Positions 3,908 through 40,613 are shown, numbered from the stretch's first letter. The stretch: DNA of 64,000 bases from Candidatus Moraniibacteriota bacterium (GCA_016699795.1 CP065011.1:883449-947448); one strand, 5' to 3'. The notes: generated from the sequence alone by a model not told the origin. Program-made: numbers and translations.

Positions 3908-4279
3908 GGGAAAAGCATTGAAGTAGCGGTCCGACTGGACCCATTTACAACACAAGGTACTTGAGGTGTAAGTATCGAAAAGGAGAACACATGAATTGCG
4001 TATCTATTTATTTTTATTTTAAAAATAAATAAACGAAGTGATGTGTCCTTCTTTTACGAGAAGCGCCTCACGGCGTTTCTTTCTTTTTTGAAGAAAGAAA
4101 TTAGACACAAGAACATTAACAATTTTTATCATCATCACAATTTTGTGCGATTAGTCCCAGAACTTTACTTGAGTCTTTTCAGAGAAGTTAGTCAAGTAAA
4201 GGGAAGGTTCTCTTCGTCTAAGTTTTACTTGGACGTCGTAAACTTTGTTTTTCATAAGATTTTTCTCAAAAATCTTTTT

Positions 4280-5791
<1,512 letters not shown>

Positions 5792-6015: not shown

Positions 6016-6744
6016 TTATGAAAAAGAGAAATTCGGAATATCTTTAGAGATATCCTCGAGATGTTGCATAGGATCGACCGAGTGAATAATTTCTTGTCCA
6101 ACCATTAAAATGCAATGTTCTCCTCCATTTTGATATATTTTTCGAAGAGAAAGAATTCGATTACTCTGATGAGTTCTTTTATCCGAATAGTTTTCAAAAG
6201 GGACGAGAAGAAGAAAATCCTTTTCAATTCCTGGAATTTTTCGAATACCAAGAATTTCTTTTGGAGGACAGATAATACCCTCAAATTGTGATCGAAATGC
6301 AATTTTGGCAAGGCGTTGAATTTGAATTTCGGTTTTTGGAAGAAATCCAATTTCGTTGAGATCTTGAGGATCTAAATTTGATAAAACCGTTTCGGCTATA
6401 AGAAGAGGCTTAATACTATGCTTCATAGTATTAACATAATTTCTTATAGCATGAAGACCTTTCGTTGAACTGAAAGCACTTACACTTAGCATCCAAATTT
6501 CGAGATGAGACAAAGAATGGATGGCTCTTACCATGGTCTCAGGTATATCATTAAATTTGAGGTCAAGAAATATTTGAAACCCTCTTTTGGTGAGGTGTTT
6601 TATTATATCAGGCCCTGTTCGGACAAAAAGACTCAATCCTATACGAAGACCTATTTGATTGGGATCAATATACATTGCAAAAGCTAAAGCTTGCGTTTGG
6701 GTGTAAAAATGATCAAGATCAACGATGATTTTAGGGTTATTCAC
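6016..6744 (-). CDS. pyrF: orotidine 5'-phosphate decarboxylase
   Basis: 242 aa. IIVDLD near the N-terminus and the FLDLKFNDIPET lysine/aspartate motif are characteristic of OMP decarboxylase. Confidence 0.8.
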   Translation of the reverse strand: MNNPKIIVDLDHFYTQTQALAFAMYIDPNQIGLRIGLSLFVRTGPDIIKHLTKRGFQIFLDLKFNDIPETMVRAIHSLSHLEIWMLSVSAFSSTKGLHAIRNYVNTMKHSIKPLLIAETVLSNLDPQDLNEIGFLPKTEIQIQRLAKIAFRSQFEGIICPPKEILGIRKIPGIEKDFLLLVPFENYSDKRTHQSNRILSLRKIYQNGGEHCILMVGQEIIHSVDPMQHLEDISKDIPNFSFS

Positions 6745-6884
6745 GAGAGTATCTCCCTGCTATTGTTTAAGGAACTTGTATATGCTTTTTTAGCATAATG
6801 ATTACTATAAAGGAATGAACGTATATTGCAAGGTTTTTTTTGGGATGATACTGTTTTAGAATACTATTAAAAAATATAAGAAAT

Positions 6885-7658
6885 ATGTCAAAATATTATA
6901 GAGCAAAAAGGGTAAAAAATCTTTTTGATCCTGAATCGAAAAAACCTTTTAAAATAAGTCGGTCGAAAATTGATCTTTTTTTGAATTGTCAACGATGTTT
7001 TTATCTTGATAGACGTTTGGGAGTGGGAAGACCTCCAGGATTTCCCTTTCAGCTTAATTCTGCAGTAGACCATCTTCTTAAAAAAGAGTTTGATGAACAT
7101 CGAGTTAAAAAATCAATTCATCCTTTAGCTGAAAATTATGAATTAAACCTCATCCCTTTTTCACATGAAAAGATAGATGAATGGAGGGAGAATTTTAAAG
7201 GAGTGCAATTTCTTCATGAAGAAACGAATTTCAAAGTTACTGGAGCAGTAGACGACCTTTGGATAGACGATGCGGGTGTTATTTTTGTTGTAGATTATAA
7301 AGCAACAAGTAAAGTGGGTGAGGTAAATATTAATGCTGAGTGGCAAATTGGATATAAAAGACAGATGGAAATATACCAATGGCTTATGAGAAAGAATGGT
7401 TTTGAAGTTTCTAACACAGGTTATTTCGTCTATTGTAATGGAAAAACTGATAGAAAAGCATTTGATGGGAAATTAGAATTTGATATAAAAATTATTCCTT
7501 ATACGGGAAATGATTCTTGGATAGAAGATGTTCTTTTAGAATCTCATGATTGTCTTATGAGAGGCGTGTTGCCAAAGGCTTCTCGAAATTGCGATTATTG
7601 TGCGTATATAAAAGCTGTAAAGCAATCCGAACAAGAAGATTTTGTAGAATATATTTAA
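6885..7658 (+). CDS. PD-(D/E)XK superfamily nuclease (Cas4/RecB-like) with putative Fe-S cysteine cluster
   Basis: 257 aa. N-terminal CQRC, a VVDYKAT (D-x-K) core and three C-terminal Cys (C...C..C), a layout similar to Cas4/AddB-type nucleases. Confidence 0.55.
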   Translation: MSKYYRAKRVKNLFDPESKKPFKISRSKIDLFLNCQRCFYLDRRLGVGRPPGFPFQLNSAVDHLLKKEFDEHRVKKSIHPLAENYELNLIPFSHEKIDEWRENFKGVQFLHEETNFKVTGAVDDLWIDDAGVIFVVDYKATSKVGEVNINAEWQIGYKRQMEIYQWLMRKNGFEVSNTGYFVYCNGKTDRKAFDGKLEFDIKIIPYTGNDSWIEDVLLESHDCLMRGVLPKASRNCDYCAYIKAVKQSEQEDFVEYI

Positions 7659-37032: not shown

Positions 37033-37956
37033 ATGTTTGATGTTGTTGTTATTGGAGGTGGTCCTGCTGGAGTAGCTGCTGGAATATATTCGGCAAGGAA
37101 GCAAATGAATACTTTATTTCTTTCTGAGTCTATCGGGGGGCAATCCTCGGTGAGTGCGACTATAGAGAATTGGATAGGAGATATTTCCTTGAAAGGTTTT
37201 GAGTTTGCTCAAAAATTAGAATCTCATCTTCGTGCTCAAGAAAGTATCGATATTCGCCTTATGACGCGAGTAGAAAAAATAAAATCTTTTTCAAAAGGAT
37301 TTTTAGTAACTACTCAGAAAGGGGACGTATTTGAAACACTTTCTGTTATTATCGCAACGGGAGGAAGTCACCGACATCTTAATGTTCCTGGAGAAGAAAA
37401 ATTTATAGGAAAAGGTGTTGTTTTCTGCTCTACTTGTGATGCTCCTTTTTTTCGAAATAAAACTGTCGCTGTCGTGGGTGCTGGTAATAGTGGCTTGGAG
37501 GCATGTCAAGATCTTTTTCCCTATGCAAAAGAAATTTTTCTTCTCTCAAATACAGATCATTTGGGTGGAGACGTTGTAAATCAAGATGTTGTAATTGGAA
37601 ATAATAAAGTTACTTTGGTGTATAATAGTGTAACAAAAGAGATTCTTGGGGATACAGTCGTGACGGGTATTCGGTATGAAGACACGGTGACGAATGAAGA
37701 CAAAATACTTGACGTAGATGGTGTTTTTGTAGAAATCGGAATGGTTCCAAATTCTCTTTTTGTAAAGGATATGCTAGAGGTGAATTCGTACGGAGAAATA
37801 GTTATCGATCATCGTACTATGGCTACATCAGTTGAAGGAATCTTTGCAGCTGGAGATGTGACGGATATTATATATAGACAAAACAATATTGGGGCGGGTC
37901 AGGGGTCTATAGCTGCTTTATCAGCATATGATTGGACAAAGAAAAAGCAGAGATAA
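37033..37956 (+). CDS. trxB: thioredoxin-disulfide reductase-like FAD/NAD(P) oxidoreductase
   Basis: Two Rossmann motifs (VVVIGGGPAGVAAG, VAVVGAGNSGLEA) and the redox-active CSTCDAPFF (CxxC). Confidence 0.7.
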   Translation: MFDVVVIGGGPAGVAAGIYSARKQMNTLFLSESIGGQSSVSATIENWIGDISLKGFEFAQKLESHLRAQESIDIRLMTRVEKIKSFSKGFLVTTQKGDVFETLSVIIATGGSHRHLNVPGEEKFIGKGVVFCSTCDAPFFRNKTVAVVGAGNSGLEACQDLFPYAKEIFLLSNTDHLGGDVVNQDVVIGNNKVTLVYNSVTKEILGDTVVTGIRYEDTVTNEDKILDVDGVFVEIGMVPNSLFVKDMLEVNSYGEIVIDHRTMATSVEGIFAAGDVTDIIYRQNNIGAGQGSIAALSAYDWTKKKQR

Positions 37957-37995: not shown

Positions 37996-39174
37996 ATGAA
38001 AAAAGAAGATAAAATTTTAAAGAGAAGGCCAGAATACCGGACAATTTTTATTGGTTCCGATCATGCTGGGTATGAGTACGCTCATCGTCTTATACAAGAT
38101 CTTAAGAAAAAAGGATATCAAGTTATTGATTGTATTGTTGGGGAGAAGTCAAAAACTGATGATTATCCGGATAGGGTTTTTGATCTGTATAGAGCTATGG
38201 CGAGAGAAAATTTTTCAGGTGAAGGTATTTTATTTTGTTCAAGTGGTGAAGGGGTATGTATAAGTGCCAATAAATTACCAGGAATTCGTGCTGTGGAGGC
38301 TCGCGATAGCTTGGAGGCTCGAAAATCGAAAGAACATAATAATGCAAATGTTCTTTGTTTGGGAGCGAAAGAACTTTCTTATGAAGAATCTTTTGAATTA
38401 GCTATGGAGTGGCTTTTGGCAGTGTTTTCCGAAGAAACGAGACATGAGAGGCGCTGTGAAAAAATACAGAGGTTGGAATATGCTAGTTTTGTTTATAAAA
38501 GTCGACAGATGCCAAAGCAACATATTATTCCTGCCATTCTTTCTTCTCGATACCATGAAATTTCTGAAAAATTACACACATTGTATGGTTTGGTACAGTG
38601 GGTACAAATAGATGTTATTGATGATTCTAATGTATCAGGAAGAACAGTACTTCCTTTTGAAATGAATCTTTTAGAATGGCCCTTTCTTTTCGAGGCTCAT
38701 CTTATGGTGGCCAATCCTATGAAATACATAGATACTTGTAAACATGCAGGATTTTCTCGGATTATTTTTCATCATGAAGTAGAAGAGGATTCGGAGCTCA
38801 TTATTAATGCTATCCATTCTGCTGGAATGGAAGTGGGAATTGCTATTAATCCCAAAACTCCTTTGGTAACATTAGAGCCTTTTATAAAGAAAATTGATCG
38901 CATTCTTCTCCTTGGTGTTCATCCTGGAAAATCAGGACAGATATTATTTCCTGAAACAAGAGAAAGAATAAAAATACTAAGAAAAAAAATATACAGAAAT
39001 CCTTCACTTTTTGTGGATGGTGGTGTAAATGAAAAAAATATAATGTCTATCGTCAATGCTGGAGCTGATGGTGTTTGTGTTTCGAGTGCACTTTTTGAAG
39101 GAAGAAAAGATGCTGACATAGCAAAAAGACTACAATACTTGGAAAGTTTTTTTGAAAATAATGAAAATATATGA
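37996..39174 (+). CDS. bifunctional ribose-5-phosphate isomerase B / ribulose-phosphate 3-epimerase fusion
   Basis: N-terminal ~150 aa is RpiB/LacAB-like (IFIGSDHAGYEY, GILFCSSGEGVCISANK). The C-terminal ~220 aa is Rpe-like TIM barrel (VQIDVIDDSNV, HLMVANP, GVHPGKSGQ, FVDGGVN). Confidence 0.75.
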   Translation: MKKEDKILKRRPEYRTIFIGSDHAGYEYAHRLIQDLKKKGYQVIDCIVGEKSKTDDYPDRVFDLYRAMARENFSGEGILFCSSGEGVCISANKLPGIRAVEARDSLEARKSKEHNNANVLCLGAKELSYEESFELAMEWLLAVFSEETRHERRCEKIQRLEYASFVYKSRQMPKQHIIPAILSSRYHEISEKLHTLYGLVQWVQIDVIDDSNVSGRTVLPFEMNLLEWPFLFEAHLMVANPMKYIDTCKHAGFSRIIFHHEVEEDSELIINAIHSAGMEVGIAINPKTPLVTLEPFIKKIDRILLLGVHPGKSGQILFPETRERIKILRKKIYRNPSLFVDGGVNEKNIMSIVNAGADGVCVSSALFEGRKDADIAKRLQYLESFFENNENI

Positions 39175-39587
39175 AAATACAAATGAAAAAGGCTTCCGTT
39201 CTTGCGTTCACCCTTATTATGATGGGAGTTCTCCTTTTGGCAGGACTTTCTCTCTCAGAGGCAACACTAAGAGATAGAAGAACGGCTTTGGATTCCGGTA
39301 ATAGCTTGCAGGCACTTCAAATCGCTGAATCTGTGGGGAATACTGCTATAGAGAAATTAACAGCTAATACAAGTGATGTCGCAACAATAGAGACTGTTAT
39401 AGAAAATGGAACATCCATTATTTGTTCTTCTGGTCCTTCTGGCGTAGGTACATACGATATTCTTTTTTATAAAATAAATGAGATACGGATGGAATGTGGT
39501 GAGGCTGCAGAGGATGTTGCAAAGATAAAAGTATATGGAAAATATCGAGGGACGGCTCGAGTTATAGATCGGGCAATTGCCAAATAA
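39171..39587 (+). CDS. PilX-N-type type IV pseudopilin-like protein (paralog 1)
   Basis: 138 aa. N-terminus KKASVLAFTLIMMGVLLLAGLSLS...SLQALQIAESVGNTAIEKL fits the PilX_N pattern (hydrophobic helix, then AxQxAE[SA]G). Confidence 0.55.
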   Translation: MKIQMKKASVLAFTLIMMGVLLLAGLSLSEATLRDRRTALDSGNSLQALQIAESVGNTAIEKLTANTSDVATIETVIENGTSIICSSGPSGVGTYDILFYKINEIRMECGEAAEDVAKIKVYGKYRGTARVIDRAIAK

Positions 39588-39602: not shown

Positions 39603-40613
39603 ATGAAAAATAAAAGAAATAGAAAAGGTTCCATCCTTGCTTTTACTCTTATTATGCTAAGCATTCTTCTTCTTGCGGGAATTTCTCTTTCGGGAGTTGT
39701 TCTGACTGATAGAAAGATGGCTATAAACTCAGGAAAAAGTTTACAAGCACTTCAAACAACAGAGAGTGGAATTGCAAATGTTGTGGATATAATAAAGAGA
39801 AAAGAACAGACTAATAATTTAGAAGATACCATTGGGAATACTGTGGAGGATTGGGGAGGGACTTGCAGTAATGGAGTTATTGAGGGATTGATACCAGATT
39901 CTCAAATTTATTTTCGTAATGAGGCGGGAAATGACACGCTTGATTGTAGTGATCCTCTTCATAAAATAGGAAGTATTCGTTCTTATGGAAAAGAAGCTCA
40001 ATCTGCTCGAGCAGTTGAAGTTAATATAAGAAAGTATGTATTTTTTTGTGGATATCATAAAATAAAGGATAGCGATGAAACTATTTATTATACTCAAAAA
40101 ATAGGTGATCAGTGCTGGATGAAACAAAATCTTACTGTGGGAGAGCAGATCGATGGAAATGAATTACCAAATGGATCAGAAATAGAAAAATATTGTCCTG
40201 ATGATGAGGAGGATAAATGTACACAATATGGTGCTTTGTATTCTTTTGGAGAAGCAAAAGAGGCTTGTCCTTCCGGCTGGCATCTTCCTACAGACGGTGA
40301 GTGGACTATTTTAGAAAAAAAAATGGGAAATTGTGGAGCTTCTAGGGATGATGGCTGGGACTGCGCACCTGCTGGAAAAGAATTTATAAATGAAAACAAT
40401 GAGCCACGACAATTAATATTCCCTCTTTCTGGAAAAAGAAACACAAACACACCTCCTCGTTTTGAATCTCCAGGATTTGATGGTTATTATTGGACTGCTA
40501 ATGATAGCGGTAATACAGCAACATACAGACAAATACAGGCAATTAGAGAAGATGTAAACAAAGCTAGTATGAACAAAAGTTCCGGATTAAGTGTTCGCTG
40601 TATAAAGAATTGA
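39603..40613 (+). CDS. PilX-N-type pseudopilin-like protein fused to a FISUMP-like C-terminal domain (paralog 2)
   Basis: 336 aa. N-terminus KGSILAFTLIMLSILLLAGISLSG...SLQALQTTESGIANV parallels the upstream paralog. The C-terminal 180 aa carry QCWMKQNL, GALYSF, CPSGWHLPTDGEW and GYYWTAN, strongly resembling the TIGR02145 domain. Confidence 0.6.
   Translation: MKNKRNRKGSILAFTLIMLSILLLAGISLSGVVLTDRKMAINSGKSLQALQTTESGIANVVDIIKRKEQTNNLEDTIGNTVEDWGGTCSNGVIEGLIPDSQIYFRNEAGNDTLDCSDPLHKIGSIRSYGKEAQSARAVEVNIRKYVFFCGYHKIKDSDETIYYTQKIGDQCWMKQNLTVGEQIDGNELPNGSEIEKYCPDDEEDKCTQYGALYSFGEAKEACPSGWHLPTDGEWTILEKKMGNCGASRDDGWDCAPAGKEFINENNEPRQLIFPLSGKRNTNTPPRFESPGFDGYYWTANDSGNTATYRQIQAIREDVNKASMNKSSGLSVRCIKN

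What the first reader, a model, noticed from the sequence alone, without database searches (positions are those of the whole stretch)
37996..39174. Single-polypeptide fusion of ribose-5-phosphate isomerase B and ribulose-phosphate 3-epimerase
One 392-aa ORF with no internal stop or frameshift carries both enzymes. The N-terminal ~150 aa have RpiB/LacAB motifs (IFIGSDHAGYEY, GILFCSSGEGVCISANK). The C-terminal ~220 aa have Rpe TIM-barrel motifs (VQIDVIDDSNV, HLMVANP, GVHPGKSGQ, FVDGGVN). Together these two enzymes interconvert ribose-5-P, ribulose-5-P and xylulose-5-P, the non-oxidative pentose phosphate branch point. A fusion would channel pentose phosphates and is typical of streamlined genomes.
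Basis: partly seen in the sequence, partly recalled or inferred. Interest (0 to 1): 0.55.

Follow-up and report, generated by a model that had tools for sequence, protein, structure and literature searches.

The report
Fused RpiB–Rpe pentose-phosphate enzyme
One gene in this small-genome (Moranbacteria/CPR) bacterium really does join two consecutive sugar-phosphate enzymes into a single protein; the join is genuine and recurs in tiny-genome bacteria and archaea, but it is a modest variation on known biochemistry whose second half goes unnamed in public annotation.

Summary
Observation confirmed. ORF 37996-39174 (+) encodes 392 aa with a complete RpiB domain (17-157) and a complete Rpe TIM barrel (177-367), each at E~1e-38. 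The protein is GenBank QQS61078.1 (Candidatus Moraniibacteriota), named there only as an RpiB-family isomerase. The fusion is not an assembly artefact: 87 collinear fusions were recovered from independent datasets, and all named ones are CPR bacteria or DPANN archaea. Eight proteins have the reverse order. Two genomes carry adjacent, overlapping, unfused rpiB and rpe genes, a plausible precursor state. All RpiB catalytic residues are intact. The Rpe half keeps both catalytic Asp residues, one His ligand and the phosphate motifs. It replaces the first metal-ligand His with Gln204 and two of three cushion Met residues with Ile208 and Leu306, and scores below NCBIfam's Rpe cut-offs. Both halves are equally conserved. 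Relatives sit beside transketolase, GAPDH, G6PD and 6PGD. Best reading: a bifunctional R5P ⇌ Ru5P ⇌ Xu5P enzyme feeding transketolase. Epimerase activity is inferred; channelling is untested. In the window's clade a thioredoxin-reductase-like gene always lies immediately upstream. No paper in the searched library describes this fusion. Interest is modest.

The parts
37996..39174 (+). Whole fused gene (392 aa plus TGA stop); identical to GenBank QQS61078.1
   Evidence: ORF; identical protein P0001; accession
37996..38040 (+). N-terminal extension (aa 1-15) ending in the clade-invariant E13-Y14-R15 motif; low model confidence
   Evidence: Invariant columns of A2; pLDDT 57 for the first 10-residue block
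38041..38436 (+). RpiB (LacAB_rpiB) Rossmann-like domain core, aa 16-147. Holds D22/H23, catalytic Cys81, Ser83, H114/N115 and K125
   Evidence: Pfam and NCBIfam; residue mapping to T. cruzi RpiB; Foldseek target-normalised TM 0.87-0.92 to RpiB structures
38437..38523 (+). Connector, aa 148-176. The RpiB C-terminal helix carrying R149/H150/R153 continues as one long helix (148-171), followed by a short variable loop into the first barrel strand
   Evidence: AF2 secondary structure H148-171 and E177-181; lower conservation (0.40) and 1-3 residue indels
38524..39105 (+). Rpe-family (beta/alpha)8 barrel, aa 177-370. Holds Gln204 (canonical His), Asp206, Ile208 (canonical Met), His235, Met237, Leu306 (canonical Met), His309 (canonical Asn), G311/G314, Asp341-G342-G343 and S364
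   Evidence: Pfam; alignment to S. pyogenes Rpe 2fli; CrRPE1 residue roles; family tabulation; Foldseek target-normalised TM 0.85-0.90
37033..37956 (+). Thioredoxin-reductase/AhpF-C-like flavoprotein gene with a CSTC motif, 39 nt upstream. It is a conserved partner of the fusion in this clade, so probably the same operon
   Evidence: Pfam; NCBIfam; adjacency conserved in L001, L008, L012, L013, L015
39171..39174 (+). ATGA stop/start overlap between the fusion and the next gene (PilX_N pseudopilin-like), suggesting translational coupling
   Evidence: Sequence read; ORF coordinates; Pfam

Best explanation
The gene encodes a bifunctional enzyme of the non-oxidative pentose phosphate pathway. The N-terminal RpiB domain, using Cys81 as base, interconverts ribose-5-P and ribulose-5-P. 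The C-terminal Rpe-family barrel, using Asp206 and Asp341 as the acid/base pair, interconverts ribulose-5-P and xylulose-5-P. Together they turn ribose-5-P, for example from scavenged nucleosides, into the R5P + Xu5P pair that transketolase needs, or run in reverse to make ribose-5-P. The fusion most likely arose from adjacent, translationally coupled rpiB and rpe genes through a small frame-restoring change at an overlapping stop/start. That would explain why it recurs in several lineages and in both orders. What the fusion secures is obligatory 1:1 co-expression and co-localisation of the two activities. SHOWN: the ORF, both complete domains, intact RpiB catalytic residues, intact Rpe catalytic Asp pair, equal conservation of the two halves, the recurrence of the fusion, the unfused adjacent state, and gene neighbourhood in relatives. 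INFERRED: both enzymatic activities, the substrates, the origin mechanism, and any kinetic advantage. The Gln204/Ile208/Leu306 changes suggest altered or relaxed metal use in the epimerase site; this is not tested.
For: Both domains are complete at E~1e-38. RpiB subfamily model NF004051 scores 140.6, above its cut-off of 135. The published T. cruzi RpiB residues Cys69, His102, Arg137, His138 and Arg141 map to identical residues C81, H114, R149, H150 and R153; Arg113 maps to Lys125. Across the 87 fusions the catalytic base is either Cys81 (68 proteins) or Gly81 plus Glu87 (19 proteins) and never neither, which indicates selection on catalysis. In the Rpe half, Asp206 is present in 87/87 and Asp341 in 86/87 (the one exception is an alignment gap); M237 and the Gly motifs are likewise near-invariant. 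Mean pairwise identity within the clade is 0.55 for RpiB and 0.54 for Rpe, against 0.40 for the connector. The AF2 model has pLDDT 89.6 and pTM 0.81. Each half superposes on solved RpiB or Rpe structures with target-normalised TM 0.85-0.92. Context: gap-[fusion]-tktN-tktC plus PfkB in L009/L010; G6PD, 6PGD and split tkt within 10 kb in L008; tkt about 5 kb away in L013. Unfused rpiB and rpe with an ATGA overlap, followed by tktN, in L002, and overlapping unfused genes in L005. Rpe models outscore AlsE (143 and 131.7 bits against 101.8). Metal dependence of Rpe is itself variable.
Against: The Rpe half fails the NCBIfam Rpe cut-offs: TIGR01163 scores 131.7 against 212.6, and NF004076 scores 143 against 165. 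Three of the seven residues described as metal ligands or intermediate-stabilising methionines are substituted (H to Q204, M to I208, M to L306), and the window protein is the only one in the set with that exact combination. No transketolase, transaldolase, G6PD or other partner gene lies in the 64-kb window. The rest of the genome could not be searched for a separate canonical rpe or rpiA. No enzymology exists for any member. Channelling has no support beyond physical linkage.
Confidence: 0.72

Rival explanations
1. The protein is an allose-type hexose-phosphate module. The RpiB half acts as an allose-6-P isomerase and the barrel as an allulose-6-P 3-epimerase (as E. coli RpiB/AlsB plus AlsE do), converting allose-6-P through allulose-6-P to fructose-6-P. 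Alternatively, the barrel epimerises some other ketose phosphate.
For: By established knowledge, the same two families act consecutively in the E. coli als pathway. The barrel fails the Rpe equivalog cut-offs and has a remodelled site. AlsE is a detectable relative: NF007266 at 101.8 bits, and PDB 3ct7 at 72.6 bits with target-normalised TM 0.85.
Against: Rpe models and structures outscore AlsE by 20-40 bits. The AlsE equivalog cut-off of 271 is missed by far more. Relatives sit beside transketolase, GAPDH, G6PD and 6PGD, not beside allose transport or kinase genes. 19 fusions carry the M. tuberculosis-type Glu base, an RpiB type reported (my recollection of the literature) not to use allose-6-P.
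Confidence: 0.08
2. Only the RpiB half is catalytic. The barrel has lost epimerase activity because its metal site is degraded, and it persists as a structural, oligomerisation or regulatory domain.
For: His is replaced by Gln at a metal ligand and two of three cushion Met residues are replaced. Fused barrels relax Met208 much more than stand-alone ones do: 32-40% against 72-95% Met. The score is sub-threshold for Rpe.
Against: The barrel is as conserved as the RpiB half, 0.54 against 0.55. Both catalytic Asp residues, His235, Met237 and the phosphate-binding Gly and Ser motifs are invariant or nearly so. The Gln variant is shared by 71 of the 128 nearest stand-alone homologues, including Parcubacteria and Moranbacteria proteins, which have no RpiB half to support. 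Some canonical Rpe enzymes appear metal-independent.
Confidence: 0.12
3. The fusion is an artefact. A sequencing or assembly frameshift merged two adjacent genes that are separate in the organism.
For: Adjacent overlapping rpiB and rpe genes do exist in other CPR genomes (L002, L005), so a single-base error could create an apparent fusion.
Against: There are 87 collinear fusions in the retrieved set, drawn from independent NCBI, JGI, ENA and Logan assemblies. Ten further clusters 44-64% identical to the window protein share the same continuous connector. The connector is a confidently predicted helix that extends the RpiB C-terminal helix. The gene lies on a 1.19-Mb contig.
Confidence: 0.02

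Closest known systems
Stand-alone ribose-5-phosphate isomerase B (for example C. thermocellum 3he8/3ph3, T. cruzi 3k7o, E. coli 1nn4, M. tuberculosis 1usl)
   Same: Same fold (target-normalised TM 0.87-0.92). Same catalytic and phosphate-binding residues: the Cys-type base with Ser at the Thr/Ser position, His-Asn, and the Arg-His-x-x-Arg helix. About 31-38% identity.
   Different: The C-terminal helix does not end the protein but continues into a second enzyme. There is a 15-residue N-terminal extension with a clade-invariant EYR motif. Arg113 (T. cruzi numbering) is Lys125.
Stand-alone ribulose-5-phosphate 3-epimerase (for example S. pyogenes 2fli, human 3ovp, C. reinhardtii 7b1w)
   Same: Same (beta/alpha)8 barrel (target-normalised TM 0.85-0.90). 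Same Asp/Asp acid-base pair, second His ligand, central Met, and the G-x-x-G and D-G-G phosphate motifs.
   Different: The first metal-ligand His is Gln204. Two of three cushion Met residues are Ile208 and Leu306. The Asn of 'VNPG' is His309. The protein scores below the NCBIfam Rpe cut-offs. The barrel is fused to RpiB.
Other gene fusions of pentose-phosphate or RuMP enzymes reported in small-genome lineages: Tkt-N::Rpe in Thaumarchaeota, G6PD::6PGD in DPANN and candidate bacterial phyla, Hps::Phi in Archaea (PMC11237513)
   Same: Same phenomenon: neighbouring steps of pentose-phosphate metabolism joined in one chain, enriched in CPR, DPANN and archaeal lineages.
   Different: A different pair of enzymes. 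That survey and the other library searches do not mention RpiB::Rpe.
Unfused rpiB-rpe(-tkt) gene clusters in CPR bacteria (L002 Saccharibacteria; L005)
   Same: Same gene order and same downstream transketolase. The 4-nt ATGA overlap or longer overlap shows the two genes are already co-translated.
   Different: Two separate polypeptides, whose Rpe keeps the canonical His ligand.

Membership tests
RpiB/LacA/LacB sugar-phosphate isomerase family (PF02502; TIGR00689) | Full-length match to the family model above the curated cut-off | tested here: met
   PF02502 scores 130 bits against a cut-off of 24.7, covering profile 1-138 of 138. TIGR00689 scores 132.1 against 88.3.
Ribose-5-phosphate isomerase B (function-level) | Score above a curated RpiB-specific model cut-off | tested here: inconclusive
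   The subfamily model NF004051 is met (140.6 against 135). The equivalogs are not: TIGR01120 scores 100.4 against 138.65, and TIGR02133 scores 131.1 against 168.2.
Ribose-5-phosphate isomerase B (function-level) | Catalytic base (Cys69 in T. cruzi, Cys66 in E. coli), ring-opening His residues, and phosphate-binding Arg residues | tested here: met
   C81, H114, H150, R149 and R153 are identical to the T. cruzi residues; Arg113 is Lys125; D22/H23 and S83 are also kept. Across the family the base is Cys81 or Glu87, exclusively one or the other.
Ribose-5-phosphate isomerase B (function-level) | Dimer-built active site and measurable R5P to Ru5P activity | not testable with these tools
   Only a monomer model could be made, and there is no enzymology.
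Ribulose-phosphate 3-epimerase family (PF00834) | Full-length match above the Pfam cut-off, and a (beta/alpha)8 barrel fold | tested here: met
   PF00834 scores 134.3 bits against 21.1, covering profile 2-198 of 198. Foldseek target-normalised TM is 0.85-0.90 to 2fli, 3ovq and 1h1y.
Ribulose-5-phosphate 3-epimerase (EC 5.1.3.1, equivalog level) | Score above the NCBIfam equivalog or subfamily cut-offs | tested here: not met
   TIGR01163 scores 131.7 against 212.6, and NF004076 scores 143 against 165. This probably explains why the deposited name covers only the RpiB half (my inference).
Ribulose-5-phosphate 3-epimerase (EC 5.1.3.1, equivalog level) | Canonical His-Asp-His-Asp metal tetrad (CrRPE1 His72/Asp74/His105/Asp216) | tested here: not met
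   The window protein has Gln204/Asp206/His235/Asp341; three of four are kept and the first His is Gln. The Gln is shared with 38 of 87 fusions and 71 of 128 stand-alone relatives.
Ribulose-5-phosphate 3-epimerase (EC 5.1.3.1, equivalog level) | Two catalytic Asp residues acting as the acid/base pair | tested here: met
   Asp206 is present in every aligned Rpe domain that covers the column, and Asp341 in all but one gapped row.
Ribulose-5-phosphate 3-epimerase (EC 5.1.3.1, equivalog level) | Three Met residues cushioning the ene-diolate (CrRPE1 Met76, Met107, Met178) | tested here: not met
   The window protein has Ile208, Met237 and Leu306, so only the central Met is kept.
D-allulose-6-phosphate 3-epimerase (AlsE) | Score above the AlsE equivalog cut-off, and allose-operon context | tested here: not met
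   NF007266 scores 101.8 against 271. The neighbours in relatives are tkt, gap, G6PD and 6PGD, with no allose genes.

The most novel reading that the evidence does not exclude
The Gln/Asn-type (QDHD, NDHD, QDDD) barrels, fused or free, form an uncharacterised subclass of Rpe widespread in CPR and DPANN. Its metal site has been rebuilt to use a harder metal (Mn2+ or Mg2+) or none, which would remove the Fe2+-dependent peroxide sensitivity known for E. coli Rpe. In the Moranbacteria clade, the strictly conserved upstream thioredoxin-reductase-like gene would form a redox module with the fusion, for example by keeping the catalytic Cys81 reduced or by coupling pentose-phosphate flux to thiol reduction.
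Probability: 0.2. Interest if true: 0.55.

Novelty: new variant of a known kind. Interest (0 to 1): 0.35.

Why it matters
Three practical points follow. (1) Annotation: every named member of this fusion family is labelled only as an RpiB-type isomerase, and a stand-alone Gln-type relative is labelled 'hypothetical protein'. Metabolic reconstructions of CPR and DPANN genomes that rely on such names or on equivalog cut-offs may therefore score ribulose-phosphate 3-epimerase, and with it the non-oxidative pentose phosphate pathway, as absent when it is probably present. That pathway is the proposed link between scavenged ribose and glycolysis in these organisms. (2) Enzymology: the family offers natural variants of the Rpe metal site (HDHD, QDHD, NDHD, QDDD) on an otherwise conserved scaffold, which bears on the unresolved question of how metal-dependent Rpe really is. 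(3) Evolution: the unfused overlapping genes, the fused form and the reverse-order form together give a clear case of recurrent fusion of adjacent pathway genes in reduced genomes. None of this overturns current understanding.

Tried and rejected
(a) Assembly or frameshift artefact: rejected because independent assemblies share the fusion and its connector. (b) Is the Gln204 substitution specific to the fusion? No. 71 of the 128 nearest stand-alone homologues also have Gln. (c) Single origin of the fusion: not supported. Both domain orders exist, and rough NJ trees scatter the fusions among single-domain proteins (23 and 16 parsimony changes). These identity-distance NJ trees are too crude to count events. 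The distances of the two halves do correlate (Mantel r 0.48, 0 of 999 permutations reach it), so the halves are often inherited together. (d) Partner pentose-phosphate genes in the window: none found by tblastn with probes from relatives or by Pfam on 30 neighbouring and mid-sized ORFs. The OMPdecase/HUMPS-family ORF at 6016-6744 is PyrF-like, not a hexulose-phosphate synthase. (e) The GTDB genome scan with the 18-sequence alignment failed for lack of a conserved stretch. With 11 sequences it returned only 7 loci, of which one was a true fusion, so that scan greatly under-samples the family. (f) Promoter and terminator scan around the gene: counts were no higher than in shuffled sequence. (g) Literature searches for a described RpiB-Rpe fusion and the CPR RuBisCO paper found other fusions only. 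A search for Rpe ligand mutagenesis returned irrelevant papers. (h) look-up of encoding contigs did not hold the window protein, so the rest of its genome could not be inspected. (i) Foldseek against PDB found no chain spanning both halves.

Full report
OBSERVATION. All six quoted motifs are present. Pfam finds LacAB_rpiB at residues 17-157 (E 7.8e-38, profile 1-138 of 138) and Ribul_P_3_epim at 177-367 (E 4.8e-39, profile 2-198 of 198). Against solved structures, the N-terminal half matches RpiB enzymes (3ph3/3he8, E 1e-26) and the C-terminal half matches Rpe enzymes (7sbj, 1h1y, 2fli, E ~1e-25).

IDENTITY AND ARTEFACT CHECK. The identical protein is GenBank QQS61078.1. It comes from a Candidatus Moraniibacteriota (Moranbacteria, CPR/Patescibacteria) MAG, lies on a 1,186,598-bp contig, and is named only 'RpiB/LacA/LacB family sugar-phosphate isomerase'. 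The window also holds a bacterial 16S rRNA gene and has 34.7% GC. A word-indexed search found 18 clusters with both Pfam domains. An exhaustive HMMER search of 1.84 billion representatives raised this considerably. Among the 267 proteins retrieved in the two searches, my domain parsing gives 87 collinear RpiB-to-Rpe fusions, 8 of the reverse order and 1 RpiB-RpiB. They come from NCBI, JGI, ENA and Logan assemblies. The ten nearest clusters are 44-64% identical to the window protein and share the same uninterrupted connector. An assembly-made fusion is therefore excluded, short of inspecting the reads. Every member that carries an organism name is CPR or DPANN: Moraniibacteriota, 'Patescibacteria group', bacterium HR34, Nanohaloarchaea and Micrarchaeota. 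One further locus (L014) has archaeal ribosomal and PolD neighbours. All named fusions are annotated only as RpiB.

ANATOMY. AlphaFold2 on the 18-sequence alignment gives a confident model (mean pLDDT 89.6, pTM 0.81). It has an RpiB-like alpha/beta domain, one long helix (148-171) that extends the RpiB C-terminal helix, a short loop, and then an eight-stranded barrel. Foldseek against PDB finds no chain covering both halves (query-normalised TM at most 0.51). Each half superposes well on its own family, with target-normalised TM of 0.85-0.90 for Rpe and 0.87-0.92 for RpiB.

RpiB HALF. PMC4882579 lists the functional residues of T. cruzi RpiB: Cys69 for isomerisation, His102 and His138 for ring opening, and Arg113, Arg137 and Arg141 for phosphate binding. 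After correcting for the 20-residue tag, the HMMER alignment to 3k7o maps these to C81, H114, H150, K125, R149 and R153. All are identical except the conservative Arg-to-Lys change. Across the 87 fusions, position 81 is Cys in 68 and Gly in 19, and exactly those 19 carry Glu at position 87. By established knowledge these are the two known RpiB catalytic-base types, E. coli Cys66 and M. tuberculosis Glu75. No fusion lacks a base. The RpiB subfamily model NF004051 is passed (140.6 against 135). The two RpiB equivalogs are not.

Rpe HALF. The CrRPE1 paper states that a tetrad of His72, Asp74, His105 and Asp216 binds the metal, that the two Asp residues exchange protons with C3, and that Met76, Met107 and Met178 stabilise the ene-diolate. 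The alignment to S. pyogenes Rpe (2fli; H34, D36, M38, H67, M69, M138, D176) maps these to Gln204, Asp206, Ile208, His235, Met237, Leu306 and Asp341. Both catalytic Asp residues, one His, the central Met and the phosphate-binding motifs (G311, G314, D341-G342-G343, S364) are intact. Three of the seven positions are changed, and the Asn of 'VNPG' is His309. The protein scores below both NCBIfam Rpe cut-offs: TIGR01163 at 131.7 against 212.6, and NF004076 at 143 against 165. I infer that this is why its deposited name omits the epimerase.

The changes are family traits rather than decay:
- Position 204 is Gln in 38, His in 37, Asn in 11 and Ser in 1 of the fusions. It is Gln in 71 of the 128 nearest stand-alone homologues, which include a Parcubacteria 'ribulose-phosphate 3-epimerase' and a Moranbacteria 'hypothetical protein'.
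- Sub-clades carry HDHD, QDHD (the window's), NDHD or QDDD sites.
- Met at position 208 is kept in 95% of His-type stand-alone proteins but in only 32-40% of fused ones.
- Within the window's clade the barrel is as conserved as the RpiB half (0.54 against 0.55 mean pairwise identity), while the connector is looser at 0.40.
- Published work shows that the metal requirement of Rpe varies. The potato enzyme crystallised without metal, and T. cruzi RPE1 was unaffected by eight cations and by chelators.

I therefore take the barrel to be an active epimerase with a modified metal site. That is an inference.

CONTEXT. In the window the gene follows mraZ-rsmH-ftsI-murF and a TrxR-like gene. Next come two PilX_N pseudopilin-like genes, lepB, hisS and, further on, ftsA and ftsZ. 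No pentose-phosphate partner and no second rpe or rpiB lies in the 64 kb. Relatives are more informative:
- L009/L010 (the QDDD type) read gap-[fusion]-tktN-tktC with a PfkB kinase alongside.
- L008 has G6PD, 6PGD and a split transketolase within 10 kb.
- L013 has a full-length transketolase about 5 kb away.
- In Saccharibacteria locus L002, separate rpiB and rpe genes overlap by the 4-nt ATGA and are followed by tktN. In L005 they also overlap in different frames.

This supports a non-oxidative pentose-phosphate role. It also suggests the origin: adjacent, translationally coupled genes fused by a small change at the junction. That can happen repeatedly, which fits the reverse-order fusions and the scattered placement of fusions in rough NJ trees. 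The distances of the two halves correlate (Mantel r 0.48; 0 of 999 permutations reach it), so once fused they are largely inherited together.

A ~305-aa thioredoxin-reductase/AhpF-C-like flavoprotein with a CSTC motif lies immediately upstream of the fusion. It scores below the TrxR and AhpF equivalog cut-offs. The adjacency holds in the window and in all five other loci of its clade (L001, L008, L012, L013, L015), even though the remaining neighbours differ. The partner is 59-68% identical across these loci, while the fusion proteins are only 39-54% identical. It is absent beside the fusions of other clades. What this pairing means is unknown. A redox link to the catalytic cysteine, or to NADPH supply, is speculation.

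MECHANISM AND RIVALS. Best explanation (confidence 0.72): a bifunctional R5P ⇌ Ru5P ⇌ Xu5P enzyme supplying transketolase, where the fusion guarantees 1:1 co-expression. Rivals:
- Inactive barrel (0.12). Argued against by equal conservation of the two halves and by stand-alone Gln-type homologues.
- Allose-6-P/allulose-6-P or another ketose-phosphate specificity (0.08). Argued against by model scores and gene context.
- Artefact (0.02).

KNOWN OR NEW. Both families are textbook enzymes. Fusions of pentose-phosphate steps are documented in Archaea, DPANN and candidate bacterial phyla: Tkt-N::Rpe, G6PD::6PGD and Hps::Phi (PMC11237513). Four searches of the literature library found no description of an RpiB::Rpe fusion (and the paper read). 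The library lacks most subscription journals, and domain-architecture databases could not be queried, so 'undescribed' is provisional. I rate the finding a new variant of a known kind, because it combines a known pair of activities in an unreported architecture with a non-canonical epimerase site. Interest is 0.35. It is useful for annotating CPR and DPANN genomes and as a natural experiment on Rpe metal use, but a specialist would not find it surprising.

Noticed in passing
window 37033-37956 (+); also L001 5072-5932, L008 9075-9989, L012 2603-3520, L013 7081-7992, L015 5141-6064: A TrxR/AhpF-C-like flavoprotein gene (CSTC motif, below the TrxR and AhpF equivalog cut-offs) lies immediately upstream of the fusion in all 6 loci of the window's clade. 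It is better conserved (59-68% identity) than the fusion itself, while the other neighbours differ. In L015 a thioredoxin gene lies two genes downstream. The reason for the pairing is unknown.
   Followed up: partly
window 4279-5789 (+): A complete bacterial 16S rRNA gene (Rfam 1421 bits, model 1-1533), with no 23S or 5S rRNA detected anywhere in the 64-kb window. The rRNA genes appear to be unlinked.
   Followed up: no
window 39171-39587 and 39603-40613 (+): Two consecutive genes with PilX_N-type N-terminal hydrophobic segments (pseudopilin-like). The second also carries a Fibrobacter succinogenes major paralogous domain. The first gene's ATG overlaps the fusion's TGA (ATGA). A similar pilX-like gene follows the fusion in L001.
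   Followed up: partly
L002 73-438 / 435-1067 / 1010-1936; L005 5995-6450 / 6386-7081: Unfused rpiB and rpe genes that overlap: a 4-nt ATGA overlap in the Saccharibacteria locus, where a transketolase N-terminal gene follows and also overlaps. This is a plausible precursor state of the fusion.
   Followed up: yes
proteins P0157, P0158, P0170, P0171, P0172, P0200, P0215, P0260; P0169: Eight proteins with the reverse domain order (Rpe then RpiB); two or three of them are N-terminally truncated. One protein is a tandem RpiB-RpiB. Their organisms are unnamed in the sources.
   Followed up: partly
proteins P0017, P0022, P0127, P0140, P0136, P0153, P0168 (for example L009 10001-11164): A sub-clade of fusions in which both His ligands of the Rpe metal tetrad are replaced, giving Gln-Asp-Asp-Asp. 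These are paired with the Glu-type RpiB base and sit directly between gap and a split transketolase.
   Followed up: partly
protein P0279 (OIP59605.1, PIX89911.1, PJA85001.1): A stand-alone Gln-type Rpe homologue from other Candidatus Moranbacteria genomes is deposited as 'hypothetical protein'. Rpe may therefore be systematically under-called in CPR metabolic reconstructions.
   Followed up: no
L008 1-832 and 2767-4735; L009 11279-13157; L013 901-2883: Transketolase is split into N-terminal and pyr/C-terminal genes in some CPR relatives (L008, L009, L002) but is a single 660-aa gene in L013. G6PD in L008 appears as two overlapping gene calls, which may reflect a frameshift or a split.
   Followed up: no
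window 6016-6744 (-): A PyrF-like OMP decarboxylase (NF001273 at 152 bits against a cut-off of 193), checked because its Pfam family also includes hexulose-6-phosphate synthase. It is not an HPS.
   Followed up: yes
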